Below, in pieces: positions 1,785 to 53,599 of a stretch of DNA of 64,000 bases; position 1 is the first letter of the stretch; each line of letters opens with the position of its first letter. Source of the DNA: Escherichia phage UGJNEcP3. The stretch lies in sequence record OV876907; one strand, written 5' to 3'. Made by a program: the position numbers and the translations under genes. The notes under the pieces are model-generated. The model was not told where the DNA came from. It made no database searches and saw only the letters and a list, made by a program, of their open reading frames with translations.

Positions 1785-1825
1785 GGGTAATTATATCACT
1801 TCACATTTACAGCGTTAAAGGACCA
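1785..1825 (-). promoter_or_regulatory. Sigma70-type promoter with extended -10 (TGATATAAT) upstream of uvsX
   Basis: Reverse complement of about 1790-1798 is TGATATAAT; TTAACG-like -35 at 17-bp spacing. Confidence 0.5.
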
Positions 1826-2708
1826 CGTCCTCATAACTTGGCATTTCGTGCTCAGAATGGATATGGGCACCGAAATAAATGAATTCAGCTAGACCAGGAT
1901 GGAATACTAAACCAGGATTCTCGTGATAAATGATATGAGGTCTTGATTTCAGAATCTGATAATATTCAACCTTACTAGGTTTGAATTTAATAATCTCTAC
2001 ATCAGGACGATAGTCTTCACGTTTAAATGAATCATTCGGGTCGGTGATATAAAGGCGAGAACCTTCAGCTGCAGCTTGGTCTACAACTCTTTCGAATTGA
2101 TAACATTTATCAGAGATACGGAATGGATGGAAAATACCATCAATTTTAATAGGCGCTAGACCTTCAGAGTAACGCTCAATTACTGCGGGATTAATTACCT
2201 TTTGGTCTACAAAAATCTTATCAGAGGACGCACCTCGTGACACCAGGACGTCTTTCTGGCATTGATTCAGGACTGTAGTATAAATCGAACGTTCAACTGA
2301 GGACACGTCGGTATCAATAAACTCGTCGATATAATAACGAGGAACTTCAGGGTCCATTGTAATGTTAAAGTTGAATTGTACAGTCTGAGTGCCATCATAA
2401 CCTGTGATATCGGTTACTAATCCTGAGCAGTCATAGTATTCGATTAACGAATCAACAACGAACTCGTTTTCAGACCAAAAATGTTTACGAGTTTCATAAG
2501 CATTTTCTTTATACCAAAGCGGTACAAAATTCAGTTCAGGAAATAATTCAATGCATTCTTTGATATCGCTCGAATTTCTAGGATAAGCCAGATAATCACC
2601 TGGGCAAGCACGGTTTAAATGGAGTTGAAAATTACCGTCCTTAAGGACGGCATATTCACCTGTTTCGTAACTACGCATACTGAAAATAGGAACGATAAAC
2701 AGACTCAT
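1815..2708 (-). CDS. Hypothetical protein at the beta-glucosyltransferase position; candidate DNA base-modifying transferase
   Basis: 297 aa; no resemblance to T4 beta-gt as recalled; ATG overlaps the stop of the upstream TS-family gene (ATGA); last gene of the five-gene coupled operon. Confidence 0.6.
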   Translation of the reverse strand: MSLFIVPIFSMRSYETGEYAVLKDGNFQLHLNRACPGDYLAYPRNSSDIKECIELFPELNFVPLWYKENAYETRKHFWSENEFVVDSLIEYYDCSGLVTDITGYDGTQTVQFNFNITMDPEVPRYYIDEFIDTDVSSVERSIYTTVLNQCQKDVLVSRGASSDKIFVDQKVINPAVIERYSEGLAPIKIDGIFHPFRISDKCYQFERVVDQAAAEGSRLYITDPNDSFKREDYRPDVEIIKFKPSKVEYYQILKSRPHIIYHENPGLVFHPGLAEFIYFGAHIHSEHEMPSYEDVVL

Positions 2709-3403
2709 TTCAGGAATCCTCGAACATAGTCAAAATCACGTTCAAATACATGTGCACTAACCATAGTATGGGAATACGTACCCAGACCAACACCACACTG
2801 TTCAGCAATAAAGGCCATCAGTTTACCCTGCAGATAGAAATCCAGCTGCATAACGATAGCACAGTTCTGTGAACGCATATGAGTGTGTGCATACAGACGT
2901 CCATCACGAATATAATATGTCACCGAATCGGTACAAGGATATTCTAAGGATTCGTCAGAATCAAGGAGGGCTTGGTCTTGTTCTTGGAGAATCTGGAACA
3001 CAACTCTTCTTGAGTTAGGCTTCTCTTTAAGCTCTTTAAGTAAGGCTGGGAGTTGGGCCACAATTCGAGGTCCATAGAAAGTGTTGAAGTTTGCAGGCAA
3101 TACGTCACTTTTCGGCTTATCAATGAACTTAGCAACATTAGGGTATTCCTTAAATGCTTCGGCGGCGTCAGTACCACCGGAAATCATAAACTTCCAGAAA
3201 GATTCGGCATAATCATAGTTGATACGATTAATACGAGGGTCGGTGAATTTATAGGTGCTTGCATCCAGAACTTCAACTGAAGCCGAACCAATTTCATAAC
3301 AACGACCGATACGAGAATCAACTGCAAACTGTGGAGCTTCCAGGATTTCTTCGTTCATTTGTTTAAATGCATTTTCAAAACTAACAGCGGTAATGTGTTT
3401 CAT
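2705..3403 (-). CDS. 42: Thymidylate-synthase-family pyrimidine hydroxymethylase, dCMP hydroxymethylase-like (divergent)
   Basis: 232 aa; PNSRR, YPCT (candidate catalytic Cys) and MRSQNCAIVMQLD motifs align with the TS/dCMP-hydroxymethylase pattern; Asp at the position that is Asp in T4 dCH and Asn in TS; syntenic with T4 gene 42 but far more divergent than neighbouring core genes. Confidence 0.75.
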   Translation of the reverse strand: MKHITAVSFENAFKQMNEEILEAPQFAVDSRIGRCYEIGSASVEVLDASTYKFTDPRINRINYDYAESFWKFMISGGTDAAEAFKEYPNVAKFIDKPKSDVLPANFNTFYGPRIVAQLPALLKELKEKPNSRRVVFQILQEQDQALLDSDESLEYPCTDSVTYYIRDGRLYAHTHMRSQNCAIVMQLDFYLQGKLMAFIAEQCGVGLGTYSHTMVSAHVFERDFDYVRGFLK

Positions 3404-3936
3404 TTATTCACCTCATAATTAATGTATTCATTAAGACGTTTTAATTCTACCATATCGACGTTAAGCAAGTTATTATGGCCGTCGTGATTTAAGATTTTAA
3501 ACACGTTTTCAAAACATGTTTCATATTGGCGGATAGTTAGGTTGAACTCATCTTTAGTCAGTTTAATGAGGTCATCTTCAAAGTCTTTATCCAACGGATT
3601 ACGGGTTAAAATAACCTCAATGATATTGAATTCTTTTTTGAAATCAATCCAATCTGCTAGTTCTACATAAGGGTCCATTTCACCACGAAGGAATCCCGAG
3701 TAAACAATATTACTAGGATAACCACGGTCTAGGATGTAAACGAAATTAGGGTCTAAAAACTTATACAACGTCTCGACTAAAGCCTTGTCATTATCAGTTC
3801 CTAACGAAATACATTTACCATTAATCTTTTTAGGAAAATCAATAAGACGATATTTCTTATCAGATAAAAGGGTTTCGATTAAAGTAGACTTCCCGGAATT
3901 ATCCGGGCCGTCTATAACAATGATTTTTGGATTCAT
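3400..3936 (-). CDS. P-loop kinase, polynucleotide-kinase-like
   Basis: 178 aa; Walker A IVIDGPDNSGKST at the N-terminus, similar in layout to the T4 Pnk kinase domain; ATGA-coupled to neighbours on both sides. Confidence 0.7.
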   Translation of the reverse strand: MNPKIIVIDGPDNSGKSTLIETLLSDKKYRLIDFPKKINGKCISLGTDNDKALVETLYKFLDPNFVYILDRGYPSNIVYSGFLRGEMDPYVELADWIDFKKEFNIIEVILTRNPLDKDFEDDLIKLTKDEFNLTIRQYETCFENVFKILNHDGHNNLLNVDMVELKRLNEYINYEVNK

Positions 3937-4292
3937 GGATGATAGGCCTTATAACTATCAAGAGTTCCTTCGCGAACCATTTCTTTAAAGTGGTCAGGAC
4001 GAATTGCTCGGTCATCGATGATAAAAGTATAACTCGGCTTGTGTGTAAGCAAATTGTGATATTTCAATCCAATTTTTTCAAGGTTCTTAACCAATGCAGG
4101 AACTACTTCAACCAAGATTCGGCCTGGGCCGCATGAAGTCATACCACGGGCAGTGAACAATGTAATCTCATGACCTTCATCGTACAGCTTATTAATCATG
4201 GACACCATTTCGGTGTCCGGTTTAAAGTTTTCATAATCACGGTCATCTTGCCAGTGAGTAATGGTATTATCGATGTCAAAGCACAAATGCAT
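3933..4292 (-). CDS. HAD-superfamily phosphatase (Pnk-phosphatase/GmhB-like)
   Basis: Motifs FDIDNT (DxDxT), LFTAR and IIDDR; start placed at the second ATG (4290-4292), which has a GGAAGAAA Shine-Dalgarno, rather than the ORF-track start at 4307. Confidence 0.7.
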   Translation of the reverse strand: MHLCFDIDNTITHWQDDRDYENFKPDTEMVSMINKLYDEGHEITLFTARGMTSCGPGRILVEVVPALVKNLEKIGLKYHNLLTHKPSYTFIIDDRAIRPDHFKEMVREGTLDSYKAYHP

Positions 4293-5965
4293 TAAATTTT
4301 CTTCCATTGTTTGTGGAGTTCAGTAGAACCTGTAGGTTTATATTTTACACCAGTTTCCTGGTCAAGCAAAACCCACTTATCAGGGCATCGAGTGATAATT
4401 TGGGCCGTAATAGGGTCACGAACTTCATCGACAAATTCACCTGTAATAAGCTTACGCTTACGAGGATGCCGCTTCAGCAGCACACTCAGTTGATATAGAC
4501 CGTTGTAATAAGCGCCCAGAGCTTTCAGAGGGTTATTTTTAAAGTAACCTGCCAACGCCATCCAGATAACAGCAATCCAGAGCTTGTGCTTAAATGTACA
4601 CATTGGAATATCATCTAAAGGCATAACCTTTTCAATATCAACGAATACTCGAGTTCCATTACGAGTTAAGCCACCCCATAGAGGGTCAGAGTTAAATTTG
4701 TCATAACCATCGATAGAATAAAGCACCTTAGCTTCATCATAAATCGCAGGGCCTTTAGAACTATTACCAAAATAACCGCGTGGGTCGATGATTTTAATAT
4801 CACCTTCGTCCGACAGCATAATATTACTGTAGTGCGGGTCGCCGTGAATAAGTTGGTACGGTTCTTTATGTTCAGACAGAATTTCTAGTGCATGACGAAG
4901 AAGTTTTTCTGGGTCGCCTACCTTAAAGTCATTGACATGGGTAATGCCCTGTGGAGCAAAGCCTTCAATCAATCCAGCAATAGAAGCATTACGAATAAGG
5001 ACCTTGTCCAATACTTCTTTCTTAACATCGGAATACCATTGCTCATCGGATGGATTATCGATAGTTCCACCAAATGAACGTAATGCACTAATGACCTTAT
5101 AAACCATGAGGACTTTAGTTTCTTTAGACATAAACCGATAGGCATCTGCCATGGTGCGACCAAAGATACGTTCCATTTTAATGAATTCACCTGGAGCAAA
5201 GTCTACAATGCTCGGAACAAATTCAGAATCAATAGAATTATACCAATTGATTTCTTTAGATTGGATTTCTTTACCTAATTCGTTGGTAGGTACTTTAATA
5301 GCCAGATTCTCAGTGAACTCTAATTTATTAAATTCACGGTTAATTTCAGAATCTTCATGGGCCTTAGCCAGTTTCAATTTGTCACCGACATCAACTACAA
5401 AGTCCAGCTTACGTTCGGTCAAATGGACCATCGAATCTAGGTTATCAGCAAGGTCTTCGCCATAATTAGAACGGTTGAAGCCTGTCCAATTAGCCACCTG
5501 ATACAAACCAACCACACCACCGCCAGTACCAATTTCACGCAAGTACGGTTCTTCAAATGTAAAACGACAGTCAGTCCCGTAGGTATAGCAATAGTCGTTA
5601 TCCCACTCAACTTTATGACCCTCAGGAATGATGTCACACCAGTTAAACAAGACGTTATGGCCAATGATATCTTCAGCAATGCAATCGATAGCATGAGCTG
5701 AACCATTAGCCACATCTACGTTACGAATAGTGAATTTAGGCTTATCACTATTAATCATGTTAATGGATTTAATATAGCCTTTAACGAGGTCGTTAAATTT
5801 GCTGTGAATAACCAGAATAATTTCATCTGATTGGTTACTATACAAATCATACAAATGTTTTAATACAGTATGTTGTTTGTAGTTAACCAATACCTTCGGG
5901 ATTTCGTTAGTAATTGGATACAACCGTGAGCCAAGACCCGCGCCTAAAATAACAACCTTTTTCAT
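4292..5965 (-). CDS. Bifunctional sugar-phosphate nucleotidyltransferase / APH-type kinase fusion
   Basis: N-terminus KKVVILGAGLGSRLYPIT is the RmlA/GlmU-type G-x-G-x-R-L nucleotidyltransferase signature; C-terminal half has HGDPHYSNIM and IIDPRG (aminoglycoside/choline/sugar-1-kinase fold). Start trimmed to MKKVVIL (ATG 5963-5965, SD GAGGAA) because a TATAAT -10 overlaps the ORF-track start. Confidence 0.85.
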   Translation of the reverse strand: MKKVVILGAGLGSRLYPITNEIPKVLVNYKQHTVLKHLYDLYSNQSDEIILVIHSKFNDLVKGYIKSINMINSDKPKFTIRNVDVANGSAHAIDCIAEDIIGHNVLFNWCDIIPEGHKVEWDNDYCYTYGTDCRFTFEEPYLREIGTGGGVVGLYQVANWTGFNRSNYGEDLADNLDSMVHLTERKLDFVVDVGDKLKLAKAHEDSEINREFNKLEFTENLAIKVPTNELGKEIQSKEINWYNSIDSEFVPSIVDFAPGEFIKMERIFGRTMADAYRFMSKETKVLMVYKVISALRSFGGTIDNPSDEQWYSDVKKEVLDKVLIRNASIAGLIEGFAPQGITHVNDFKVGDPEKLLRHALEILSEHKEPYQLIHGDPHYSNIMLSDEGDIKIIDPRGYFGNSSKGPAIYDEAKVLYSIDGYDKFNSDPLWGGLTRNGTRVFVDIEKVMPLDDIPMCTFKHKLWIAVIWMALAGYFKNNPLKALGAYYNGLYQLSVLLKRHPRKRKLITGEFVDEVRDPITAQIITRCPDKWVLLDQETGVKYKPTGSTELHKQWKKI

Positions 5966-5984
5966 TATCTGTTCCTCAAGTGAA

Positions 5985-6020
5985 TGTAGGTACATTATAC
6001 ACTATTTTTAATAAATTGGT
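5985..6020 (-). promoter_or_regulatory. Promoter (-10 TATAAT) heading the five-gene modification operon
   Basis: Reverse complement of 5994-5999 is TATAAT, about 30 nt upstream of the nucleotidyltransferase-kinase ATG. Confidence 0.45.
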
Positions 6021-6025
6021 ATTGC

Positions 6026-6526
6026 TTAAATCTTATCTTTACCGATTTCAATACACTGTTCTATTGCCGCCGGTACTTTGGTCTTGAGCTTATCGATTTG
6101 TTTCTTATAATCACGAGCTTTACCGAAGCTCTCGGTTTCGAGCATTTCGTAATAACGAGCCTCGTGGATGGAAATCTGTAGATTGATATGGTTTACGCAC
6201 ATCGCATACAGTTTCTGCTTTTTGTACAAATCATCTTGGCGCTTCATTTCTGCCTGGTGTTTGGCTAGTACCGCTTCACGCTTAGACTCTTGTTCACGTT
6301 GGAATTCGATTTCCCTTTGAGCATATTTTGCACAGTTATTACCACATTGATTATTAGCTCGGGTATACACAAGTCCAGAACCGGCACGGAATTTCATTTC
6401 GCCATCGAATTGTTTCTGTTCAGCTGCGATACGAGCTTTACCAACTTCATCGGCTGAAACTGCATCACCATATTGGACCGCACAACCTGATAGGAGCATA
6501 CTCATTGCGATAATTAACTTTTTCAT
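6026..6526 (-). CDS. Putative lipoprotein
   Basis: 166 aa; N-terminus MKKLIIAMSMLLSGC is a signal peptide with lipobox; SD GAGGAT upstream. Confidence 0.65.
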   Translation of the reverse strand: MKKLIIAMSMLLSGCAVQYGDAVSADEVGKARIAAEQKQFDGEMKFRAGSGLVYTRANNQCGNNCAKYAQREIEFQREQESKREAVLAKHQAEMKRQDDLYKKQKLYAMCVNHINLQISIHEARYYEMLETESFGKARDYKKQIDKLKTKVPAAIEQCIEIGKDKI

Positions 6527-6533
6527 AATATCC

Positions 6534-6671
6534 TCAATTAAAACAGTTATACTTAATTTGTGCTATAAGAATAATCCATCCTATGATTAATGTCGGAATC
6601 ATTGGCGGAATTGCCACTGCCCAATAAACGGTAAAGGCAGCCATTATAAGAAATAAAATAATTATCTTCAT
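6534..6671 (-). CDS. Small hydrophobic membrane protein (imm.1-like position)
   Basis: 45 aa ORF found by hand (MKIIILFLIMAAFTVYWAVAIPPMIPTLIIGWIILIAQIKYNCFN); ATG overlaps the imm stop (ATGA); below the ORF-track size cutoff. Confidence 0.35.
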   Translation of the reverse strand: MKIIILFLIMAAFTVYWAVAIPPMIPTLIIGWIILIAQIKYNCFN

Positions 6672-20792: not shown

Positions 20793-20965
20793 AATTTAAT
20801 TTCCTTAGCTATCGAACAAAATACACCACGGTCACAAATCATTTTAATATTAAGGTCAATTATGGTATACCACACGTCTAGGCTAGATATTTCAGTTACT
20901 AGAACAGCTTTGCCGTTGATTGAATAATACTGGTTGACTTTAATTTCTTTATCTTGGATAGTCAT
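20789..20965 (-). CDS. Hypothetical small protein
   Basis: About 58 aa ORF found by hand (MTIQDKEIKVNQYYSING); SD GAGGAG; stop overlaps the next ATG. Confidence 0.35.
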   Translation of the reverse strand: MTIQDKEIKVNQYYSINGKAVLVTEISSLDVWYTIIDLNIKMICDRGVFCSIAKEIKL

Positions 20966-21024
20966 AATGTTCTCCTCATGTGTTGATAGGATAGACTATA
21001 ACACGTGAGGAGAGGAAGTAAACA

Positions 21025-21348
21025 CTAATCTTCAATTAAATCTCGGTCATAGCCAAGCTCAATCAAAAGGGATTTGAAGGCAGGAATATTTTCTATTTTC
21101 TTATTATCAACAAAGATTACAGGATAGCGTATAGCTAAGCTCTTGAAGCCGGCACGTTTGGCCAATGATACTATAAGAGGCTTGTCATATACTGCGCCTG
21201 ACGGCGTCTGGTTAATCACAGGATAGAAAGTATGTGGGATAGAAAGGGAATTTAGGAGCGATAGAACTGCAATGCACCCTGGACAGCGCATGACTGCCTC
21301 AGGGATACCGTAAATCTCAATTTTAGTTAACTTTTGGTCCACAGGAAA
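21025..21348 (-). CDS. nrdH: Glutaredoxin-like protein (NrdH-like)
   Basis: CPGC redox motif after KIEIYGIP; start placed at a GTG with AAGGAG 9 nt upstream, because the ORF-track extension overlaps the upstream gene. Confidence 0.6.
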   Translation of the reverse strand, partial: FPVDQKLTKIEIYGIPEAVMRCPGCIAVLSLLNSLSIPHTFYPVINQTPSGAVYDKPLIVSLAKRAGFKSLAIRYPVIFVDNKKIENIPAFKSLLIELGYDRDLIED

Positions 21349-21619
21349 TAACTCCTTGGTAGTCCCAAGTTTTGATAACTTCGTCTTCATTAGTTCCGTA
21401 TGGGACGTAAATCTGGATAAGGAAACCCGTGTCATCAAAAGAGAAATAAACCGTTGGTTTAATACCATGAATCTCTGACAGAGCATAGATGTCCTTAAGG
21501 TCGTCTTCCTTACCTTTAAAGAATTCAGGGTTCAGGTCACAGTCATGGAAGTACCAGTCATTACCGAACTTGTCCCATGCGGTCCAATTCAAAGCTACAT
21601 ACTCTTCAAAACGTTTCAT
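21323..21619 (-). CDS. Hypothetical protein
   Basis: 98 aa ORF. Confidence 0.5.
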   Translation of the reverse strand: MKRFEEYVALNWTAWDKFGNDWYFHDCDLNPEFFKGKEDDLKDIYALSEIHGIKPTVYFSFDDTGFLIQIYVPYGTNEDEVIKTWDYQGVISCGPKVN

Positions 21620-21843
21620 TCTTTCACCTTCATCATTTTAGAAATAACACTATGAACAGCCTGGATTCGTTTGTCGAACTCAGTCCCTTCAAGACCCTTT
21701 TCAGTACTCAATGCACCAATAATAACGAACAGCACTCCAAATGGGATAACCAGGATTAAAAGGCACACAATAAACAGGACAAATGTAATATTGGCCAGGA
21801 TATCAGAAGCAGCATTACGAAATTTATTCATACGATAGTCCAT
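21616..21843 (-). CDS. Hypothetical membrane protein
   Basis: 75 aa with one long hydrophobic segment. Confidence 0.45.
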   Translation of the reverse strand: MDYRMNKFRNAASDILANITFVLFIVCLLILVIPFGVLFVIIGALSTEKGLEGTEFDKRIQAVHSVISKMMKVKE

Positions 21844-21937
21844 GTATTAGTTACAACAAATAACCATTGAGCAGGATACTCAACACCCATGCGCCGGATA
21901 ATATCGTTCATAGATTCGGTTAAGGCATAAAAATTAA

Positions 21938-22411
21938 TCATTTAAGCGATTTCCTCAGTTGTTTTTTAAATGAATCGACCATTTGTTTCTTTGTGTCAGA
22001 TTCATTATAAGTCATTCCGTGTGAAAGCATTTCAGCAATCATTTCTTCCTTACCTAATCTACTGAACTCTTTGGTTTTATCAGGAACGAAATTAGGATGG
22101 ATATTGTTTTCAGTATAATCAGATTTCAGATAGACAAGCAAATTCTCTAACCATTCGAGGTAGTCAACGTTTTGACCTTTAAGACCAGAGCGGTTAAACT
22201 TATGCTTCATTTGTCCTTCTGCGGCATTACACAGGTTGCATAGTAACCCACGAACCTTACCAGCTTTTGGCCCGTTTAATTCGTGGTCATGGTCAAGGTG
22301 GTTGCTTTGAACATCAGGGTTTAATTCACGGGTACAGATTAAACACTTACCATCCTGTGCATCATAAAGTTTTTGTTTTTCTTCTTTGTATAATTTACCA
22401 GTCAACAACAT
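21938..22411 (-). CDS. 49: Endonuclease VII (Holliday-junction resolvase) gp49
   Basis: 157 aa; MLLTGKLYKEEKQKLYDAQDGKCLICTRELNPDVQSNHLDHDHELNGPKAGKVRGLLCNLCN is near-identical to T4 endo VII as recalled. Confidence 0.95.
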   Translation of the reverse strand: MLLTGKLYKEEKQKLYDAQDGKCLICTRELNPDVQSNHLDHDHELNGPKAGKVRGLLCNLCNAAEGQMKHKFNRSGLKGQNVDYLEWLENLLVYLKSDYTENNIHPNFVPDKTKEFSRLGKEEMIAEMLSHGMTYNESDTKKQMVDSFKKQLRKSLK

Positions 22412-24299: not shown

Positions 24300-24507
24300 T
24301 ATCTTCTCGCTCAAATTTATGTTTGCAATGTCGGCATTTGTAACGAAGATTACTAGACTGCCAATGGACCAGTTGGACTTGTTCGGTTCCGCATTCCGGA
24401 CAGTTAGGAACATTCTTGGAAGCTTGTTCACGGCGATGAACCATAGCCATCACAGCATCCCAATCAGGAATAGTTTGGTCAATATCGTCAGCTAATTGAT
24501 ATTTCAT
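24286..24507 (-). CDS. Zinc-ribbon protein
   Basis: 73 aa with CPECG...CRHCKHKF (two CxxC pairs). Confidence 0.5.
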
Positions 24508-25514
24508 TTCAACAGCTCCAGAGCTTGTTCAAGGCGGTCTAAACGATTAGTAGACTCTTCCCAAAGTTTCTTGGCAGCAGTATATTGTCCAGTCAGTTTT
24601 TTGTTAATAGCAAGGGCGTCTTTATACGCTTTTTCCAGAGCAACGACTTCTGGTAACTTGGATTTAGTAATTGGTGTAGGGACCATGATAGGGCTGTTCA
24701 AGTCGTTAATCAAGTCTTCTAATGTAGCAGGCTCTTTATCAGTATTCACAATTTCCTCACATTTTTCTTGGTAAATTTCAGCATCGGTTTTTGGAACATG
24801 ACATTTGATTTCACGGACTGTTACTAAAACTTCATATCCTTTCCAGCCTAAGTGGTGTTTAACTTCTTGGGTCTCATATTTCTCTACGGTATCCATCAGA
24901 GCTAAAGCCTGTTCGATAGTATTCAAGGTATCGTAAGCAATATCTTGATACTTTACAACTTCTGGCTCATCTTTAGGTTTCCGGTTTGGTGACCAGATAA
25001 CGGAAATAAGCACCTTTCCTTTATAGGCGTTTGTTTTAATCATGCAATTTGCCATAGGATGAATGGTGCGGCTATCACCAGCAACTACTGTTTTAGTGGC
25101 GGCTTTGAGGATTAATGCAGAGTTAGCCTTGAATTCAGCGGCCCAACGTTGTGGAAATAAACTACTAGGGTCCATACCTTTAATTTTGACATAACCTTTT
25201 ATGGTATCGCCAAACCATTTGTAGCTAACAACATGGCTAGAACCAGGATATTTCTCTCTACCAAACTCAGAAAGGATGTCCTTATTGACCAGCCGCGAAA
25301 GCAGTCGAGAACCTTTAAATGTATCTACGATATCATTAATAAACAAGCGACCCGCGATCTTTTCGATTTCAGCTTTGAAACAGCGCGATAATGCATCATC
25401 AATTTGGTCGACCCATTTATTGATATTAGAAACTATTACCACATATGGGGTTAATGGAGGGGTATTGGCAGTGATATACGTAGTAAAGGCATTGATGTAT
25501 TCGGTACGAGTCAT
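24504..25514 (-). CDS. Hypothetical protein with C-terminal coiled coil
   Basis: 336 aa ORF; SD GAGGAG; promoter cassette upstream. Confidence 0.6.
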   Translation of the reverse strand: MTRTEYINAFTTYITANTPPLTPYVVIVSNINKWVDQIDDALSRCFKAEIEKIAGRLFINDIVDTFKGSRLLSRLVNKDILSEFGREKYPGSSHVVSYKWFGDTIKGYVKIKGMDPSSLFPQRWAAEFKANSALILKAATKTVVAGDSRTIHPMANCMIKTNAYKGKVLISVIWSPNRKPKDEPEVVKYQDIAYDTLNTIEQALALMDTVEKYETQEVKHHLGWKGYEVLVTVREIKCHVPKTDAEIYQEKCEEIVNTDKEPATLEDLINDLNSPIMVPTPITKSKLPEVVALEKAYKDALAINKKLTGQYTAAKKLWEESTNRLDRLEQALELLK

Positions 25515-26657: not shown

Positions 26658-27503
26658 TTAATCCTTAAGAAGATTTAAAATATCTGTATATTTCCTACGT
26701 TCAGCCTTAGCTTTAGCGTTCAGACCAGAGAGTCGGAAAATCTCATCATCTTGTTGTTGGATTGTAACATTCAAGCAAGTAAGCAAATTGCTAAAATACT
26801 CGATTTGAGCTTGATGCTTCTCATTGCTGCGCACTGGTACAGGTTCTGGTTTAGGAGCTTGTTCTGAAGGCTCTTCAGCCAGGTCTTTAATTTTATAAAG
26901 TTTAATACGCTGACCCACTCCAGTTTCGGCATCACCGAAACTAAGAACACCATGCTGTTCTAATTCAGACAGGGCCAAGCGCAGATGGAACTTCCAGTTG
27001 TCGTATTGACACCCACTGTAATGGGAAATAGTATACTCATTTTCATTTCCTGGGTGGTTAACAATATTAAAGATAATCCAATCACCTGAGCCATTGGTCT
27101 TAAAGGTCATTTGTTTATCAAGACCTTTTGCAAGGCGAGCGCCAAGAGCCAGTAGACGTCGTTGGTTGGCATTAAGGTCTTGAACAACTTCGTCAAATGA
27201 CATCGCCGGGATTAAACGACCATAAAGGTCGTAGCCTTTGTTATAATTTTTAAGAATAATTTTGGCATTAGCACGAGACAACATACCTGTTTTACGAAGA
27301 GTTTTCATGACCCGGTCTTCTAAGGTAAAAGACCCTTTGGTCTTTTCAAAGATTTTAGTGAAGTCATCTTTAACAGTACAAACATTGAACTTGTCCCACA
27401 TCATATATAGAACCTTTTCAACTACTTCTTTAGAACTCGGAATACGACCAAATTTAATAACTTTTTTAACTTCAGAACGAATTTGATTAATTGCCTGTGA
27501 CAT
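26658..27503 (-). CDS. Hypothetical protein
   Basis: 281 aa ORF. Confidence 0.6.
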   Translation of the reverse strand: MSQAINQIRSEVKKVIKFGRIPSSKEVVEKVLYMMWDKFNVCTVKDDFTKIFEKTKGSFTLEDRVMKTLRKTGMLSRANAKIILKNYNKGYDLYGRLIPAMSFDEVVQDLNANQRRLLALGARLAKGLDKQMTFKTNGSGDWIIFNIVNHPGNENEYTISHYSGCQYDNWKFHLRLALSELEQHGVLSFGDAETGVGQRIKLYKIKDLAEEPSEQAPKPEPVPVRSNEKHQAQIEYFSNLLTCLNVTIQQQDDEIFRLSGLNAKAKAERRKYTDILNLLKD

Positions 27504-36873: not shown

Positions 36874-37397
36874 TGCATTCCTATCACAAAGAACAGTGGC
36901 AGAGGTTTAGAACCCTGGCACATAAATTTGTTAATCATTACCTGGTAAGCTTCATAGAACTTATCCATCGATGGAAGGCGCATTGGCTCTTCGATAATAA
37001 TCAATAATCGAGTAACTGATAGACCACGATACTTATGGAAGTTATCTTCGTCTAAAAATGAACGCACGGTATCATATACAACAAATCCAGGACCTTCTAC
37101 TTGAAGGTGTGGTTGGGCCTTAGAAACCCTTTTTATTATATTACAGATTTCTCGTGAGCGATGCGAAGAACTTGACATAACAATCACATCATTACCCTTG
37201 GAAACCCAATCAGCTGCGAACTGAGCAAGGGCACTTGTTTTACCTGTTTGACGCCCGCCGTCAAGTCGAAGAGTACCAAACTCTTGCATTCTTGAAGTGG
37301 GTTCGTACCAGGTATATTGGTCTGAGTCTAAACGTTCAATGGCGCGTTCAGCGAAGGCGTGCATTAAGGTTAGATAAATGGGAGTTAAAAATTTCAT
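36870..37397 (-). CDS. Hypothetical P-loop protein
   Basis: 175 aa with GGRQTGKTS Walker-A-like motif. Confidence 0.5.
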   Translation of the reverse strand: MKFLTPIYLTLMHAFAERAIERLDSDQYTWYEPTSRMQEFGTLRLDGGRQTGKTSALAQFAADWVSKGNDVIVMSSSSHRSREICNIIKRVSKAQPHLQVEGPGFVVYDTVRSFLDEDNFHKYRGLSVTRLLIIIEEPMRLPSMDKFYEAYQVMINKFMCQGSKPLPLFFVIGMQ

Positions 37398-37557
37398 AAT
37401 GGTCTCTTAGTTGTGGGGCCGTTCCTTGGCACATAATTCAACCATGTATCCGAATGTAAACCCCTTACCGCACTCGGGCTCGACCTTATTACAGGTAGGG
37501 AAAGGTCCATCACTCAGAGGACGCGACGTTCATGAGGAGAGGGTCGGTTTGCCTTTA

Positions 37558-37857
37558 TTAGAAAGAACCAGAACCTCTAATTGTGTTCTGGCGACCTTTA
37601 TTTTCTAATTCGGAGTGGTCGATTTCATATGCTTGTGCTACGCCAAAGGCCTTTTTAACTTTAGCTAAAGAACCTTTAGATGTAACAATATTAAAAGTAT
37701 TACCTTTGGTAAAATCAACAAAATCGACTTGTACGCCCTGTTTACCGAGGCTTGCTACAATAGCATCAACATATTCTTGGTCTAAATTGCCTTGAACTCC
37801 AATTTGAAATGCTTTAGGAGCTTTGGCTTCTGTGATAAATTCTTGATAAGTTTTCAT
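37558..37857 (-). CDS. Internal-protein-like head protein with capsid targeting sequence
   Basis: N-terminus MKTYQEFITEA matches the T4 IP capsid-targeting sequence (cleaved after Glu by the prohead protease). Confidence 0.7.
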   Translation of the reverse strand: MKTYQEFITEAKAPKAFQIGVQGNLDQEYVDAIVASLGKQGVQVDFVDFTKGNTFNIVTSKGSLAKVKKAFGVAQAYEIDHSELENKGRQNTIRGSGSF

Positions 37858-37900
37858 TGTTATTCCTTAAGTTGATAGAAGTATTCTATCACGGATTTAA

Positions 37901-38317
37901 TTAAGCGTAAATAGCCTTGCCATAATGTTTGTACCAGGTAGGACGCTGTGCAATTTTTTCATCCAAACGGGTCTGAGATATAGCAATAGAAGCTTCGTGT
38001 GGAGTATAGTCACCACGGAATTCCTGAGGAATGTCACTAATGTCCTGGACAGTAGTGTCCTTGATATTAAAACCACGTTTTAAACATTCGGCTATAAGCT
38101 CAATTTGTCGCTTACGTAAAAATTCAAGCTTATCGTAAAAGAATGTAACATGGCCTGTGCCAAGGATAAAAGTAGGACTGATTTTGAAATCACGGACACG
38201 TTTACCATTAGCAACATGCTTACGAACTGCACCGAAAACACGTGGTAATTCACGGTACTCGGCCATTAAGTGTTGGTCAGCCAATTCAGATACTAAGGTA
38301 AGGTTGATACGAGTCAT
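37901..38317 (-). CDS. denV: Endonuclease V, pyrimidine-dimer DNA glycosylase
   Basis: Start trimmed to [34 protein letters not shown]; essentially identical to T4 DenV as recalled. Confidence 0.97.
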
Positions 38318-38377
38318 TTTAGTGTTCTCCATGTTTGTATGAGAACACTATATCACAACTATCGTAAAAATAAACCG

Positions 38378-38680
38378 TTATTTACCTTTAATTGCTTTAG
38401 CTGCTTCGGTAGCCGCTTGCTGAAGGTCATCCATAGACATACCGAATTTAGAAGCAAAGTTATCAATTTTCTTTTCGACAGAATTCAAAGGCTTGGCCTG
38501 TTTACCTTCATTAGCGCCAGGGAGAGCGAGAATACGCTCTTTCTCAATATAAAGGCTTACAAGTTTCTTACGGTCTTTATCTGGCAAATCATGAAATGAA
38601 TGGGCCTTTTTATTTACGGCGGCTTCTAATTTACCTGCAGTTACGCGGGCTTCAGTGATAAATTCTTGATAGGTTTTCAT
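38378..38680 (-). CDS. Internal-protein-like head protein with capsid targeting sequence
   Basis: N-terminus MKTYQEFITEA. Confidence 0.7.
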   Translation of the reverse strand: MKTYQEFITEARVTAGKLEAAVNKKAHSFHDLPDKDRKKLVSLYIEKERILALPGANEGKQAKPLNSVEKKIDNFASKFGMSMDDLQQAATEAAKAIKGK

Positions 38681-38721
38681 ATGTTTCCTTTAAAGGTAAA
38701 TAGGTCTAAGTAATCTCTTTA

Positions 38722-39318
38722 TTAATTACCACGGGCTGCATTAGCAACGGCGTAAGCGTACTGAATATTAGCGTCTTTAAACGTACCTTTAGAGGTATCT
38801 ATTTCTGCCTTAAAGCCGCCTTTAGCCATAACATCAGCAAATTCTTTACGGAAAGTCATTGCATCAAGACCTTTCCATGTTGATTTGTGCTTGGCAAATT
38901 CAAGACCAGCGAAGTTAACTGCTTTAGCCAATTTATTATCAATAGTCCATTTACCTGCTTTAGGTACAAATACCGGACCTTTCTGTTTAGAGAACAGTTT
39001 TAAATTCCAGCGACGAAGGTCACCGTCAGCTTTAACAAAAGCTGCGTCCAAGTTACTAGCAACAACATCTTGGATATGGGCAAATTTAAGTCCATCAGCT
39101 TCAATATTTAGGTCGTTACGCCAGCGAAGTCCTTCCCAGGCGAAAGCTTTAAAGTCGGAAGCTTTTGTAGCCAAGTACCGTTCAATAGGAGCTGTTTTAG
39201 CGTCAAAACCGTTTCCTGGGTTGTCAACGCCGTTTCCTTTGTAAGTCCACTCATCTTTATTAATGCCTTGGACCTTTCCTACAGAAGCTTCGGCGATAAA
39301 TTCTTTATACGTTTTCAT
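38722..39318 (-). CDS. Internal-protein-like head protein with capsid targeting sequence
   Basis: N-terminus MKTYKEFIAEA. Confidence 0.7.
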   Translation of the reverse strand: MKTYKEFIAEASVGKVQGINKDEWTYKGNGVDNPGNGFDAKTAPIERYLATKASDFKAFAWEGLRWRNDLNIEADGLKFAHIQDVVASNLDAAFVKADGDLRRWNLKLFSKQKGPVFVPKAGKWTIDNKLAKAVNFAGLEFAKHKSTWKGLDAMTFRKEFADVMAKGGFKAEIDTSKGTFKDANIQYAYAVANAARGN

Positions 39319-39400
39319 ACGGGTTCCTTAAAGGTAAATATTTTAATTGGTCTGTTCAAGTAACTGTAGATATACTATCACAATTCTAGGAGATGTAAAC

Positions 39401-39799
39401 TTATTTGTAGGTTTTCATCCAATTCTTGAACAAAGCCGCGACGTCTTTCTCTTTAACGTTCAGTTTAACATCCAACATTTTACCACCCGCTGCTCTTGTT
39501 TGGCGAATCTTAGCAGTACCGGTTTCGCCATTCCACTCAACATAATACTGTCCAGTGTTCATTGCAATACCATCGCCGTAGTCTTCGTTTTTAGAAGTGG
39601 TGAAGGCCAGCTTCATAGTCTTAGAGACACGAGCCTGCATGCCTGTCTGAAGAGCATTACGAACGCGAATAACCTGAGGAGTGGCCTGGGTCAGGTTCTC
39701 ATTCAGTTCTTCAGTGAACTCTTCAGATTCAAACATAGCCAAAAGTTCTTTAGATGCAGGAATTACATTCTCTGCGATAAATTCATTATAAGTTTTCAT
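39401..39799 (-). CDS. Internal-protein-like head protein with capsid targeting sequence
   Basis: N-terminus [11 protein letters not shown]. Confidence 0.7.
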
Positions 39800-40280
39800 A
39801 TGCTTTCCAAGTACCTGTTTTAAATGTAGAAATCACGCGCTTAGCACGATTAGGAGTTTGTCTATACCAACGAGATTGGGCCAGGTTAACTGCCGCATCG
39901 TCCCAACGTTTCTGTTGGAGCATACGTAAAGAGTTAGTGAACCCGGCTACACCTGCTTCACCCATCTGGAAGACCATGTTAATTAAAGCACAACGACGAA
40001 CTTCGTCTAATACATCATAAACAGGTTTCAATTTAGGATTACGCAGAATAGCTCTACGAGCATTTTCAACCGATCGATTAAAGAGTTGCTCGGCTTCAGC
40101 CATAGTAATACGACCATTACAAACTCGGCCCATAAGCTTATCAAGTTCAGCACGAGCAACATCTTTAGATGGGTTCTTGGTAACTAACTGGCCAATACCA
40201 ATAGTCCAATAACCTTCGGTGTCTTTATAAAGATTTAAATCAAGACCTTCGTCTTGACGCAACATATCAAAAATATCCAT
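39786..40280 (-). CDS. e: Endolysin (T4 lysozyme)
   Basis: 164 aa; DEGL...[13 protein letters not shown]...[30 protein letters not shown] closely matches T4 lysozyme. Confidence 0.95.
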
Positions 40281-40284
40281 AATA

Positions 40285-40310
40285 CCTCCTGAGTATAGGA
40301 GGTATTTATA
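40285..40310 (-). promoter_or_regulatory. Late promoter TATAAATA plus SD-sequestering hairpin upstream of gene e
   Basis: Minus strand TATAAATA (about 40303-40310) then CCTCC-TATACTCA-GGAGG hairpin whose 3' arm is the Shine-Dalgarno of e. Confidence 0.65.
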
Positions 40311-40760: not shown

Positions 40761-40989
40761 CGTCTCGTTCCCATGATTGTTTAAAGATATCTCGTATAAT
40801 AATTTCAACACATGTTTCTGTTGACGGGCTTTCACTATCAGATATTTGGACCATATAATCAGAAATAGGTCGGAACATATCCAAGTCACTTTCTAAATCT
40901 TCTTTGATTTTCTCTTCTGATGTTCCGGTGTCATAGGAATACAGATAAGAATCACATGACTCAGATTTAATATAAATTGCAATACTCAT
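40753..40989 (-). CDS. Hypothetical acidic protein
   Basis: 78 aa ORF. Confidence 0.45.
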   Translation of the reverse strand: MSIAIYIKSESCDSYLYSYDTGTSEEKIKEDLESDLDMFRPISDYMVQISDSESPSTETCVEIIIRDIFKQSWERDDE

Positions 40990-52837: not shown

Positions 52838-52845
<8 letters not shown>

Positions 52846-53599
52846 TTTTATTTCCTAATAATTTATCAATAGTAGTGTATAGTTCAGAAAGAGTGCCGTT
52901 ATTTTCAACAACAACGTCACCAGGTAAAATTGGTAGACCCGCTTCAGTGATGTGCGAGTCTTGTACTTGACCGGTTTCAGCGCGAACTACATGAATAATC
53001 GTAGCACCCATCGCTCTGAGTGAATCAATTTCGTGTGTTTGACGAACATCAGGTACGACATAGTATTTCGCATCAGAGTATATTTTATCAAAATAGTCTA
53101 AAGCGAACAACTTAACCCAATACATCTTATCAAATTGGTTAACAATAATATCAGTCCCAAGGGTCTGCATGAGACGACGTACTGACCAATTGTTATTTTT
53201 ATTTATTACTTCAAATAGCTGGTCTTTTGTTTCTTCAGACAGATATTGGACCGGGGTAAGACCGTAATGATATGCGGTAAGAACATCAATTCCTGGAATA
53301 GGAAGGATATTATTCAGTTTAACAATAGCATGTTCAAAAATATCAACCACATCATACGGTTTTAAAGGAAGGGTTTCTTCACGGTCGTAACCGATACCTT
53401 CAAAACAATTAAAATCAAGTTTAGGCATATAGCTACGGTCGAATACAGGGTCATCAGATATGTATTCATAAGCTTCAGCCAGATACTTTTTAATAGGACC
53501 AGCGAGTTGGAATTTTACGGAATCCATATTCTCAATTACATAGTTAGCAACGGTATCCTTACCGCTACGTTTGATTCCTACAATTGATATTAGTTTCAT
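52838..53599 (-). CDS. 1: Deoxynucleoside monophosphate kinase gp1
   Basis: 253 aa; P-loop GIKRSGKDT and WSVRRLMQTLGTD...MYWVKLFALDY...MGATIIHVVR match T4 gp1. Confidence 0.93.

What the first reader, a model, noticed from the sequence alone, without database searches (positions are those of the whole stretch)
1815..5995. Five-gene translationally coupled operon replacing the T4 glucosyltransferases: candidate hydroxymethylcytosine hypermodification module
Between gene 43/imm and uvsX, where T4 carries imm-42-beta-gt, this genome has in order a nucleotidyltransferase-kinase fusion, a HAD phosphatase, a P-loop kinase, a thymidylate-synthase-family hydroxymethylase and an unrecognised 297 aa protein. 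The four internal junctions are ATGA stop/start overlaps, and a TATAAT promoter sits at the head. No alpha-gt or beta-gt homolog is present anywhere in the window. The enzyme set (kinase plus nucleotidyltransferase plus phosphatase) is what a nucleotide-activated donor pathway looks like (compare HldE/GmhB or LicA/LicC logic), and the last gene sits exactly where beta-gt would. My inference is that the phage builds its own activated donor and attaches a non-glucose group to 5-hmC. T-even phage RB69 is reported to carry arabinosylated hmC; this locus could be the genetic basis of that kind of chemistry, or of a different adduct.
Basis: partly seen in the sequence, partly recalled or inferred. 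Interest (0 to 1): 0.92.

Follow-up and report, generated by a model that had tools for sequence, protein, structure and literature searches.

The report
Phage cytosine hydroxylation-arabinosylation gene module
This five-gene operon of a T4-like coliphage is the smallest known version of the recently published pathway that replaces cytosine in phage DNA with sugar-coated 5-hydroxycytosine, so it is real but already explained rather than new.

Summary
The window is Escherichia phage UGJNEcP4 (Dhakavirus; 100% match). The five minus-strand genes at 1815-5965 exist as described, between gp43/imm and uvsX. All five are orthologs of the RB69 cytosine-arabinosylation cluster:
- fusion, 41-44% identical to gp52:53
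- HAD phosphatase, 61% to gp51
- P-loop kinase, 37% to gp45
- thymidylate-synthase homolog, 79% to gp48
- the 297 aa protein, 64-69% to gp46:47

The 297 aa protein models confidently as a GT-B glycosyltransferase.

The base is wrong. The TS homolog carries the published 5-hydroxy-dCMP synthase signature (C146, E143, N169, D177), whereas T4 gp42 keeps D169. The acceptor should therefore be 5-hydroxycytosine, not 5-hmC. Only three of the four junctions are ATGA, and the TATAAT is weak evidence for a promoter.

The pathway was published in 2018-2026, and Dhakaviruses are named in Lee et al. 2026.

What remains of interest is that this is a minimal subtype. The whole genome has no arabinose-5-phosphate isomerase, no U32-like gene and no second transferase, and its sugar-activation cassette is divergent and Klebsiella-phage-like. 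No phage of this subtype has been chemically characterised in the literature I could read.

The parts
4292..5965 (-). Bifunctional sugar-activating enzyme (557 aa). The N-terminal domain is a sugar-1-phosphate nucleotidyltransferase (GAGLGSRLYPIT...K). The C-terminal domain is an APH/choline-kinase-fold sugar kinase (HGDPHYSN, IDPRG). It is the ortholog of RB69 gp52:53 and HY126 AfhE.
   Evidence: Pfam NTP_transferase plus APH. NCBIfam MurU/GlmU/RmlA-type N-terminus. 44% and 41% identity to RB69 p053 and p052. 80% to Klebsiella F48 and 72% to Proteus Pm5461. AfhE biochemistry is summarised in PMC13326640.
3933..4292 (-). HAD-family sugar phosphatase (119 aa; alternative start at 4307). It is the ortholog of RB69 gp51 and HY126 AfhF. 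Predicted reaction: Araf-1,5-bisphosphate to Araf-1-phosphate. The GenBank and PHROG label 'phosphoheptose isomerase' is wrong.
   Evidence: Motif CFDIDNTIT. TIGR01689 E 6.4e-14. PDB 9iqw E 2e-51 and 1xpj E 1.6e-11. 61% identity to RB69 p051. PHROG 1238 label.
3400..3936 (-). P-loop nucleotide-kinase-like protein (178 aa) of the thymidylate-kinase/PPK2/dNK superfamily. It is the ortholog of RB69 gp45. Its substrate has not been shown.
   Evidence: Walker A GPDNSGKST and the DRG motif. 37% identity to RB69 p045 and 76% to F48. AF2 model pLDDT 86.6. Foldseek hits to PPK2, TMK and dCK with E 2e-4 to 8e-3 and TM about 0.5. PHROG 761 'thymidylate kinase'.
2705..3403 (-). Thymidylate-synthase-superfamily dCMP C5-hydroxylase (5hodCMP synthase, 232 aa). 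It is the ortholog of RB69 gp48.
   Evidence: Pfam Thymidylat_synt E 4.8e-14. PDB 9iqu/9iqc/9ir2 E 1.5e-125. 79% identity to RB69 gp48. The signature C146, E143, N169, D177 is seen in an alignment with E. coli ThyA, the phage td, T4 gp42 and RB69 gp48. Only 25% identity to T4 gp42.
1815..2708 (-). GT-B fold glycosyltransferase (297 aa). It is the ortholog of RB69 gp46:47 ('arabinosyltransferase 1') and the only detectable DNA glycosyltransferase candidate in the genome.
5994..5999 (-). TATAAT hexamer in the 60-nt gap ahead of the operon. It is a candidate -10 element and is unproven.
   Evidence: Present and conserved in JS98. Poor -35; not called by the scan. The hexamer's frequency in the window is at chance level.
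52838..53599 (-). T4 gp1-type deoxynucleoside monophosphate kinase. It lies elsewhere in the window and probably belongs to the same pathway, converting 5hodCMP to 5hodCDP.
   Evidence: Pfam DNMK E 2.2e-90. The RB69 homolog gp159 was shown to phosphorylate 5hodCMP (PMC13326640).

Best explanation
The operon is the Dhakavirus version of the phage pathway that replaces cytosine with O-arabinosylated 5-hydroxycytosine.

Base branch:
- The phage dCTPase, encoded outside the window, supplies dCMP.
- The TS homolog (2705..3403) hydroxylates dCMP at C5 with O2 and a flavin, giving 5-hydroxy-dCMP.
- Kinases raise it to the triphosphate and the phage polymerase incorporates it. The kinases are the gp1-type dNMP kinase at 52838..53599, possibly the cluster's TMK-like kinase, and the host NDK.

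Sugar branch:
- D-arabinose-5-phosphate is phosphorylated at C1 by the C-terminal kinase domain of the fusion. Here it must come from the host KdsD/GutQ, because the phage has no isomerase of its own.
- The HAD phosphatase removes the 5-phosphate.
- The N-terminal nucleotidyltransferase domain makes UDP-arabinofuranose.

Transfer:
- The 297 aa GT-B enzyme transfers arabinose to the 5-OH group.
- Only one transferase is encoded, so the predicted product is mono-arabinosyl-5-hydroxycytosine.

Basis of each step:
- Shown here: orthology, folds and motifs, the hydroxylase signature, and the absence of the isomerase, the U32-like gene and the second transferase.
- Shown by others on orthologs: the 5hodCMP synthase activity and the AfhE/AfhF activities.
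- Inferred: the sugar identity in this lineage, the host origin of arabinose-5-phosphate, the number of sugars, the kinase's substrate, and whether the first sugar goes onto DNA or onto a nucleotide.
For: - The window is 100% identical to Dhakavirus UGJNEcP4.
- All five proteins are reciprocal matches of RB69 cluster proteins. They lie at the same gp43-uvsX position.
- The TS homolog has C146, E143, N169 and D177. It matches the 9iqu/9iqc/9ir2 chains at E 1e-125; these sit in the same accession run as 9iqz, which is labelled a phage HY126 glycosyltransferase. Lee et al. give D169N as diagnostic of 5hodCMP synthases.
- The HAD protein matches PDB 9iqw at E 2e-51.
- The fusion has both domains and their catalytic motifs.
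- No alpha-gt, beta-gt, true gp42, API, U32-like gene or gp3-type transferase is found anywhere in the genome.
- The HAD phosphatase is retained, which argues that the input is still a sugar phosphate (inference).
- Thanatos, which has a single syntenic transferase, is reported as mono-arabinosylated.
- Lee et al. name Dhakaviruses as carriers of the cluster.
Against: - I found no nucleoside analysis of any Dhakavirus virion DNA.
- The sugar-activating fusion is only 41-44% identical to RB69's. It belongs to a separate clade of 80 records, and that count equals the number of carriers without an isomerase hit. Every characterised phage I could type is of the other type.
- Lee et al. could not reconstitute the first arabinosyl transfer on 5hoC-DNA. 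They state that it may occur on the mononucleotide.
- The Thanatos homolog of the 297 aa protein was reported to act as a UDP-xylose pyrophosphorylase in vitro.
- The role of the TMK-like kinase is unassigned, because the gp1-type kinase already phosphorylates 5hodCMP.
- Cryptic glycosyltransferases without sequence signatures cannot be excluded. The 297 aa protein itself has no Pfam hit.
Confidence: 0.8

Rival explanations
1. Same scaffold, different sugar. The Dhaka/Marfa/Braga-type cassette (divergent fusion, HAD and kinase, no phage isomerase) activates another sugar phosphate. The candidates are a different pentose from the host pentose-phosphate pool, or a different nucleotide carrier. 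The adduct on 5-hydroxycytosine would then not be D-arabinofuranose.
For: - Identity of phage fusion proteins to the window's is bimodal: 80 records at 60% or more, 287 at about 42-45%.
- The 80 equals the difference between the 356 transferase-positive records and the 276 with an isomerase hit.
- Core genes place the window nearest RB69 (gp43 83%, UvsX 90%). Its fusion, HAD and kinase are nearest Klebsiella F48 instead (80/84/76% versus 42/61/37%).
- Of the characterised phages named, those I could type (RB69, DLP3, HY126, LC53) carry the other fusion type and/or an isomerase.
Against: - The transferase, which must bind the donor sugar, is as similar to RB69's (67%) as to F48's (68%).
- The HAD step is retained.
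- E. coli already makes arabinose-5-phosphate for Kdo synthesis (own knowledge of KdsD/GutQ), so an isomerase may simply be dispensable.
- Lee et al. treat these genera as arabinosylating by synteny.
Confidence: 0.12
2. The TS homolog is a dCMP hydroxymethylase like T4 gp42, and the sugar is attached to 5-hydroxymethylcytosine.
For: - The protein is in the TS family and sits where T4 gene 42 sits.
- Several GenBank records label the ortholog dCMP hydroxymethylase.
- The 2018 RB69 paper proposed arabinosyl-hmC (PMC6024577).
Against: - Position 169 is Asn, as in all tested 5hodCMP synthases. T4 gp42 keeps Asp.
- The protein is 79% identical to RB69 gp48, which makes 5hodCMP with 18O2 incorporation. 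It is only 25% identical to gp42.
- The hmC assignment for RB69 has been withdrawn.
Confidence: 0.04
3. Nucleotide-level glycosylation. The 297 aa enzyme arabinosylates 5hodCMP rather than DNA, and the cluster's TMK-like kinase exists to phosphorylate the bulky glycosylated monophosphate. The polymerase then incorporates an already arabinosylated dCTP analogue.
For: - Lee et al. saw no activity of single transferases on 5hoC-DNA and say their data cannot tell nucleotide from DNA.
- A dedicated TMK-like kinase travels with the cluster in every lineage examined, although the gp1-type kinase already handles 5hodCMP.
- In the window the kinase gene is translationally coupled between the HAD and TS genes.
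Against: - All known T-even glycosyltransferases act on DNA.
- The second and third arabinosyl transfers were shown on DNA.
- The model's nearest structural relatives include the T4 DNA alpha-glucosyltransferase.
- No data exist on the kinase's substrate.
Confidence: 0.15
4. The 297 aa protein is an NDP-pentose pyrophosphorylase, as reported for its Thanatos homolog TH1_063, and the transferase is another protein.
For: The Thanatos paper reports UDP-xylose pyrophosphorylase activity in vitro for TH1_063. The Thanatos-2 homolog is 51% identical to the window protein.
Against: - The fusion's N-terminal domain already supplies a canonical pyrophosphorylase.
- No other transferase candidate was found in the genome.
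Confidence: 0.04

Closest known systems
RB69 (Mosigvirus) cytosine arabinosylation cluster gp45-gp55 plus gp3 (Thomas et al. 2018; Lee et al. 2026, PMC13326640)
   Same: - Same genomic slot between gp43 and uvsX.
- Orthologs of gp52:53, gp51, gp45, gp48 and gp46:47.
- Same hydroxylase signature.
- Same GT-B top structural hit, 6kih.
   Different: - The window lacks the arabinose-5-phosphate isomerase gp55, the U32-like gp50, gp49 and the second transferase gp3.
- The kinase gene is upstream of the TS gene instead of downstream of the transferase.
- The fusion (42%) and kinase (37%) are far more diverged than the core genes (83-90%).
- RB69 DNA carries mono- and di-arabinosyl groups. Only mono is expected here.
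Phage HY126 Afh pathway (He et al. 2026, Nat Chem Biol; PDB 9iqc/9iqu/9ir2, 9iqw, 9iqz)
   Same: The TS homolog and the HAD phosphatase match 9iqu and 9iqw at E 1e-125 and 2e-51. I assign those chains to HY126 by their accession run and their near-identity to RB69 proteins. The proposed scheme of AfhE (kinase plus pyrophosphorylase) and AfhF (phosphatase) maps one-to-one onto the fusion and the HAD protein.
Klebsiella Marfavirus F48 and Proteus Bragavirus Pm5461 clusters
   Same: - Same gene order: fusion, HAD, kinase, then TS and transferase.
- Same fusion clade (80% and 72%).
- No isomerase within the loci examined.
   Different: Both carry a U32-like gene plus a mini chorismate mutase between the kinase and the TS homolog. 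The window has a clean five-gene array without them.
T4 gene 42 / beta-gt / alpha-gt (glucosyl-hmC)
   Different: - The base is 5-hydroxy-, not 5-hydroxymethyl-cytosine (N169 versus D169).
- T4 uses host UDP-glucose and needs no donor pathway.
- There is no sequence homology to alpha-gt or beta-gt.
HldE/GmhB (ADP-heptose) and AmgK/MurU (UDP-MurNAc) sugar-activation logic
   Same: A kinase, phosphatase and nucleotidyltransferase route through a sugar bisphosphate, as in HldE/GmhB. An APH-fold anomeric kinase is paired with a MurU-like uridylyltransferase.
   Different: This is an analogy of logic only. The domains are fused in the opposite arrangement and belong to different families from HldE. 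No membership is claimed.

Membership tests
5hodCMP synthase (TS-superfamily dCMP C5-hydroxylase; RB69 gp48 / DLP3 gp80) | Thymidylate-synthase fold and homology | tested here: met
   Pfam PF00303 E 4.8e-14. PDB 9iqu E 1.5e-125 and MilA 5jnh E 2.5e-14.
5hodCMP synthase (TS-superfamily dCMP C5-hydroxylase; RB69 gp48 / DLP3 gp80) | Catalytic Cys at E. coli ThyA position 146 | tested here: met
   The Cys in LEYPC aligns with ThyA C146.
5hodCMP synthase (TS-superfamily dCMP C5-hydroxylase; RB69 gp48 / DLP3 gp80) | dCMP-specifying Asp at position 177 and an acidic residue at position 143 | tested here: met
   D177 (NCAIVMQLD) and E143 (LEYPC).
5hodCMP synthase (TS-superfamily dCMP C5-hydroxylase; RB69 gp48 / DLP3 gp80) | Diagnostic Asn at position 169 (D169N) | tested here: met
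   MRSQN in the window and in RB69 gp48. T4 gp42 has MRSND, and E. coli ThyA and the phage td have QRSCD/QRSVD.
5hodCMP synthase (TS-superfamily dCMP C5-hydroxylase; RB69 gp48 / DLP3 gp80) | Flavin-dependent, O2-derived hydroxylation of dCMP | not testable with these tools
   Shown for RB69 gp48 and the HY126 enzyme. The window protein is 79% identical to gp48.
T4 gp42-type dCMP hydroxymethylase | Asp retained at position 169 and close homology to gp42 | tested here: not met
   N169. 25% identity over 159 residues.
AfhE / RB69 gp52:53 bifunctional arabinose-5-P 1-kinase and UDP-arabinose pyrophosphorylase | N-terminal sugar-1-P nucleotidyltransferase domain fused to a C-terminal APH-fold kinase with its catalytic motifs | tested here: met
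   PF00483 at residues 13-110 and PF01636 at residues 356-427 of the 567 aa ORF. Motifs GAGLGSRL and HGDPHYSN. MurU/GlmU-type hits.
AfhE / RB69 gp52:53 bifunctional arabinose-5-P 1-kinase and UDP-arabinose pyrophosphorylase | Orthology to the characterised enzymes | tested here: met
   Full-length collinear match to RB69 p053 plus p052. Identity is only 44% and 41%, and the protein falls in a separate 80-record clade.
AfhE / RB69 gp52:53 bifunctional arabinose-5-P 1-kinase and UDP-arabinose pyrophosphorylase | Substrates arabinose-5-P and UTP; product UDP-Araf | not testable with these tools
   Known only from He et al. as summarised.
RB69/DLP3-type arabinosylation cluster as a whole | Phage-encoded arabinose-5-phosphate isomerase | tested here: not met
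   No tblastn hit of RB69 p055 in the window or in the rest of the genome. 276 of 356 carrier records have one.
AfhF / RB69 gp51 HAD phosphatase | HAD motif I (DxDxT) and homology to the solved enzyme | tested here: met
   DIDNT. 9iqw E 2e-51 and 1xpj E 1.6e-11. 61% identity to gp51.
DNA arabinosyltransferase 1 (RB69 gp46:47 / DLP3 gp79 family) | Orthology, and synteny directly downstream of the 5hodCMP synthase gene | tested here: met
   69% and 64% identity to p047 and p046. The TS-to-transferase adjacency is the same in RB69, F48, Pm5461, Thanatos-2 and JS98.
DNA arabinosyltransferase 1 (RB69 gp46:47 / DLP3 gp79 family) | GT-B glycosyltransferase fold | tested here: met
DNA arabinosyltransferase 1 (RB69 gp46:47 / DLP3 gp79 family) | Transfer of arabinose from UDP-Araf to the 5-OH of 5hoC | not testable with these tools
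   Not reconstituted even for the RB69 and DLP3 enzymes in Lee et al..
T4 alpha- and beta-glucosyltransferases | Sequence homology to T4 a-gt or b-gt | tested here: not met
Thymidylate-kinase-like nucleotide kinase (RB69 gp45) | P-loop NMP-kinase fold with Walker A | tested here: met
   GPDNSGKST. The model (pLDDT 86.6) hits PPK2, TMK and dCK with E 2e-4 to 8e-3. Substrate unknown.

The most novel reading that the evidence does not exclude
The window's cassette belongs to an uncharacterised second subtype of the pathway found in Dhaka-, Marfa- and Bragaviruses (80 of about 360 carrier phages). This subtype has no phage isomerase and has a fusion enzyme only about 42% identical to the characterised ones. 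It may make a different donor, and so a different adduct, from UDP-D-arabinofuranose. If the sugar is arabinose, the five genes would define the minimal sufficient set, fed by host KdsD/GutQ. Because the module has neither the U32-like gene nor a chorismate mutase, and the genome has no NrdD/NrdG, DNA modification in this phage may depend strictly on oxygen.
Probability: 0.15. Interest if true: 0.55.

Novelty: new member of a known kind. Interest (0 to 1): 0.3.

Why it matters
For annotation, it corrects several labels used in dozens of Dhakavirus records:
- 'Thymidylate synthase' or 'dCMP hydroxymethylase' should be 5hodCMP synthase.
- 'Phosphoheptose isomerase' should be a sugar phosphatase.
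- The 'hypothetical protein' entries are the sugar-activating enzyme and the DNA glycosyltransferase.

For phage therapy and phage engineering, it predicts that JS98-like coliphages carry arabinosyl-5-hydroxycytosine. That modification governs their sensitivity to restriction, CRISPR and type IV systems.

For the biology, it offers a natural five-gene minimal set. It also shows which parts of the RB69 cluster are dispensable: the isomerase, the U32-like/chorismate-mutase pair and the extra transferases. As a discovery it adds little, because the pathway is published.

Tried and rejected
- Mahler et al. 2025 and He et al. 2026 are not in the library. Their content is known only through Lee et al..
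- Literature searches for HY126, and for Dhakavirus with arabinose or DNA modification, found no chemical analysis of a Dhakavirus.
- Sequence-only searches of the 297 aa protein gave nothing: Pfam, NCBIfam, and PDB phmmer, whose best hits at E 0.065 or worse are chance. Only structure prediction resolved it.
- The promoter scan did not support the head TATAAT. I saw no MotA box (TGCTT) upstream by reading the sequence.
- I scanned other large unannotated genes of the window for hidden glycosyltransferases. The regions were 24.5-31.6 kb and 41.6-43.5 kb. Pfam found no glycosyltransferase domain (DUF7235, AAA, RlaP, y05I, DUF7275). Two proteins, of 336 and 281 aa, stayed without any family and were not modelled.
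- I considered that the module might be RB69-derived by vertical descent. I rejected this for the fusion, HAD and kinase genes, which are Klebsiella-phage-like while the flanking core genes are RB69-like.
- RB69 gp49 was not detectably related to the mini chorismate mutases found at the same position in other phages.

Full report
**Identity and anatomy.**

The 4.4 kb region is 100% identical to Escherichia phage UGJNEcP4 (OV877765.1, Tevenvirinae, Dhakavirus). It is 94-96% identical to JS98-group phages such as QL01, Bp7, IME08 and WG01.

Five minus-strand ORFs lie between DNA polymerase gp43/imm and uvsX:

| Window coordinates | Length | Protein |
|---|---|---|
| 4292..5965 | 557 aa | nucleotidyltransferase-kinase fusion |
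| 3933..4292 | 119 aa | HAD phosphatase |
| 3400..3936 | 178 aa | P-loop kinase |
| 2705..3403 | 232 aa | thymidylate-synthase (TS) homolog |
| 1815..2708 | 297 aa | protein with no family assignment |

The ORF list starts the first gene at ATG 5995. That ATG lies inside the TATAAT hexamer. The ATG at 5965 follows a GAGGAA Shine-Dalgarno and is the start used in GenBank for this phage and for JS98.

Three junctions are ATGA overlaps. The fusion/HAD junction is TAATG. Four-base overlaps are frequent elsewhere in this genome, so they show ordinary T4-type gene packing.

The TATAAT at 5999..5994 is conserved in JS98, but the evidence that it is a promoter is weak:
- Its -35 is poor and the scan did not call it.
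- The hexamer occurs at chance frequency in the window, 93 against 82 +/- 9.
- A better early-type promoter lies upstream of imm, so read-through transcription is equally plausible.

**What each protein is.**

*Fusion.* Pfam finds NTP_transferase at the N-terminus and an APH-type kinase at the C-terminus. NCBIfam places the N-terminus with MurU, GlmU and RmlA-type sugar-1-phosphate nucleotidyltransferases. The catalytic motifs GAGLGSRL and HGDPHYSN are present.

*HAD protein.* It has motif I, DIDNT. It hits TIGR01689 and the solved structure 9iqw at E 2e-51.

*Kinase.* It has a Walker A motif. Its AlphaFold model (pLDDT 86.6) falls in the thymidylate-kinase/PPK2/dNK superfamily, with modest scores.

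*TS homolog.* It matches Thymidylat_synt and the solved chains 9iqu, 9iqc and 9ir2 at E 1e-125.

**Orthology to the RB69 cluster.**

BLASTP against proteins translated from the RB69 locus gives the identities below. Both split RB69 ORF pairs are known sequencing errors.

| Window protein | RB69 counterpart | Identity |
|---|---|---|
| fusion | p053 and p052 | 44% and 41% |
| HAD | p051 | 61% |
| kinase | p045 | 37% |
| TS homolog | p048 | 79% |
| 297 aa protein | p047 and p046 | 69% and 64% |

The locus occupies the same gp43-uvsX slot as in RB69. The TS-homolog/transferase pair has the position and order of T4 genes 42 and beta-gt.

**The base is 5-hydroxycytosine, not 5-hydroxymethylcytosine.**

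Lee et al. 2026 (PMC13326640) report three things:
- RB69 and Acinetobacter phage DLP3 carry arabinose ether-linked to 5-hydroxycytosine.
- RB69 gp48 and DLP3 gp80 make 5-hydroxy-dCMP from dCMP with oxygen from O2, probably using a flavin.
- Asn at E. coli ThyA position 169 is diagnostic of these enzymes.

I aligned the window protein with E. coli ThyA, the phage's own td, T4 gp42 and RB69 gp48. The window protein and RB69 gp48 have C146, E143, N169 and D177. T4 gp42 keeps D169. No other gp42-like gene exists in the genome, and the window protein is only 25% identical to gp42.

The original arabinosyl-hmC assignment for RB69 has itself been revised.

**The sugar branch.**

According to Lee et al.'s summary of He et al. 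2026, HY126 AfhE phosphorylates arabinose-5-phosphate at C1 and later makes UDP-arabinose. AfhF removes the 5-phosphate in between. The window's fusion and HAD proteins map onto these two enzymes.

**What is missing, and the prediction that follows.**

I assembled the whole UGJNEcP4 genome from the window plus three fetched loci. I searched it with RB69 and T4 proteins. There is no match to any of the following:
- arabinose-5-phosphate isomerase (RB69 p055)
- the U32-like protein (p050)
- p049
- the second arabinosyltransferase (p003)
- T4 alpha-gt
- T4 beta-gt

The alpha-gt slot between genes 47 and 55 holds only small ORFs. The rIIA-gene 39 slot, where RB69 keeps p003, also holds only small ORFs.

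With one transferase, as in the mono-arabinosylated Shewanella phage Thanatos, the expected product is mono-arabinosyl-5-hydroxycytosine. Arabinose-5-phosphate would have to come from the host. E. coli makes it with KdsD and GutQ for Kdo synthesis (my own knowledge). Retention of the HAD phosphatase argues that the input is still a sugar phosphate.

**A distinct subtype.**

Counts across the phage collection are in the table below.

| Protein searched | Records with a homolog |
|---|---|
| 297 aa transferase | 356 |
| arabinose-5-phosphate isomerase | 276 |
| U32-like protein | 222 |

Identity of phage fusion proteins to the window's is bimodal:
- 80 records are at 60% or more. These are Dhakaviruses, Klebsiella Marfaviruses and some Proteus phages.
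- 287 records are at about 42-45%. They include Mosigviruses, Acinetobacter phages and Serratia LC53.
- Eighty is also the number of transferase-positive records without an isomerase hit.

The window's core genes are nearest RB69 (gp43 83%, UvsX 90%). Its fusion, HAD and kinase are nearest Klebsiella phage F48 instead (80, 84 and 76%, against 42, 61 and 37% for RB69). F48 also has the same gene order. The transferase is equidistant from the two (68% and 67%).

So the sugar-activation cassette is mosaic, and it belongs to a clade with no chemically characterised member in the literature I could read. This leaves a modest chance that the sugar or carrier differs.

Dhakaviruses are the only group I saw that lacks both the isomerase and the U32-like gene. 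That makes this the minimal form of the module.

**Open mechanistic points.**

- Lee et al. could not reconstitute the first arabinosyl transfer on 5hoC-DNA. They say it might occur on the mononucleotide.
- The cluster's TMK-like kinase has no assigned substrate, because the gp1-type kinase already phosphorylates 5hodCMP. That kinase is present in the window at 52838..53599.
- A nucleotide-level first transfer, followed by a dedicated kinase, is therefore a live alternative.
- The Thanatos study reported UDP-xylose pyrophosphorylase activity for the homolog of the 297 aa protein. The GT-B model makes this unlikely to be its main role.

**Novelty.**

The JS98 GenBank record, cited to 2007 from my own recollection, already labels these five genes as RB69 orf052c, 051c, 045c, 048c and 047c-like. 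Thomas et al. 2018 cited the Dhakavirus IME08 fusion protein. Lee et al. 2026 name Dhakaviruses among the groups with the syntenic cluster.

The finding is therefore a correct recognition of a known system. The base needs correcting, and the subtype is reduced and uncharacterised.

I found no nucleoside analysis of a Dhakavirus. Two key papers were not readable.

**Side observation in related loci.**

The U32-like protein that the window lacks is 79-86% identical among RB69, Klebsiella F48, Proteus Pm5461 and Shewanella Thanatos-2. It has 13 invariant cysteines.

In three of these phages a mini chorismate mutase follows it directly.

It is absent from the 57 Acinetobacter phage records that carry the rest of the cluster. 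Acinetobacter is a strict aerobe.

From my own knowledge, the characterised non-protease U32 proteins are O2-independent, prephenate-dependent hydroxylases. They are TrhP, UbiU/UbiV and RlhA, and RlhA makes 5-hydroxycytidine in 23S rRNA.

This suggests an anaerobic route to 5-hydroxycytosine that would back up the O2-dependent TS-like enzyme. Lee et al. label the protein 'sugar or heterocycle reductase' and do not mention U32 or prephenate.

The window phage lacks this gene. It also lacks the anaerobic ribonucleotide reductase NrdD/NrdG.

Noticed in passing
L002 6837-8006 (RB69 p050); L010 5907-7067 (Klebsiella F48); L011 5510-6676 (Proteus Pm5461); L009 9462-10598 (Thanatos-2); absent from the window: A 'peptidase U32' protein inside the arabinosylation cluster is 79-86% identical across phages of Escherichia, Klebsiella, Proteus and Shewanella. 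That is far more conserved than its neighbours. It has 13 invariant Cys, including a C-terminal CxxxxCxxxCxxC. Known non-protease U32 proteins (TrhP, RlhA, UbiU/V) are O2-independent, prephenate-dependent hydroxylases, and RlhA makes 5-hydroxycytidine (own knowledge). It could be an anaerobic cytosine C5-hydroxylase. It is found in 222 phage records, none from the strict aerobe Acinetobacter and none from Dhakavirus.
   Followed up: partly
L010 7064-7309 (F48 gp096); L009 10595-10852 (Thanatos-2 TH2_069); L011 6914-7300 (Pm5461 gp036): A mini chorismate mutase (Pfam CM_2) lies directly after the U32-like gene in F48 and Thanatos-2, and one small ORF further on in Pm5461. The three are mutually homologous (E 8e-18 to 4e-5). 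Chorismate mutase makes prephenate, the co-substrate of U32-type hydroxylases. RB69 gp49, at the same position, shows no detectable similarity.
   Followed up: partly
window about 20800-22400, and the whole UGJNEcP4 genome: The phage has NrdH (window 21028..21333) but no NrdD or NrdG anaerobic ribonucleotide reductase anywhere in the genome. In T4 these genes lie between gene 55 and gene 49. Together with the missing U32-like gene, this suggests nucleotide metabolism tuned to aerobic growth.
   Followed up: partly
window 6026-6526 (-): A 166 aa predicted lipoprotein (signal MKKLIIAMSMLLSGC) lies directly upstream of the operon. It belongs to PHROG 1754 of unknown function and is conserved in JS98. 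It sits between a homolog of RB69 p054 (6534..6671) and the fusion gene, and nothing suggests it is part of the modification pathway.
   Followed up: no
window 3933-4292 and orthologs in many GenBank records: The HAD phosphatase is widely annotated as 'phosphoheptose isomerase'. The label traces to PHROG 1238. The protein has HAD motifs and matches a solved phosphatase-type structure, so the label is wrong.
   Followed up: yes
window 24504-25514 (-) and 26658-27503 (-): Two sizeable proteins, of 336 and 281 aa, have no Pfam family. I did not model them, so a cryptic second glycosyltransferase cannot be fully excluded.
   Followed up: no
L006 about 37075-43338 (record 124074-130337, outside the window): Three tandem Alt-like RNA polymerase ADP-ribosyltransferase genes of about 2.1 kb each are annotated in a row.
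   Followed up: no
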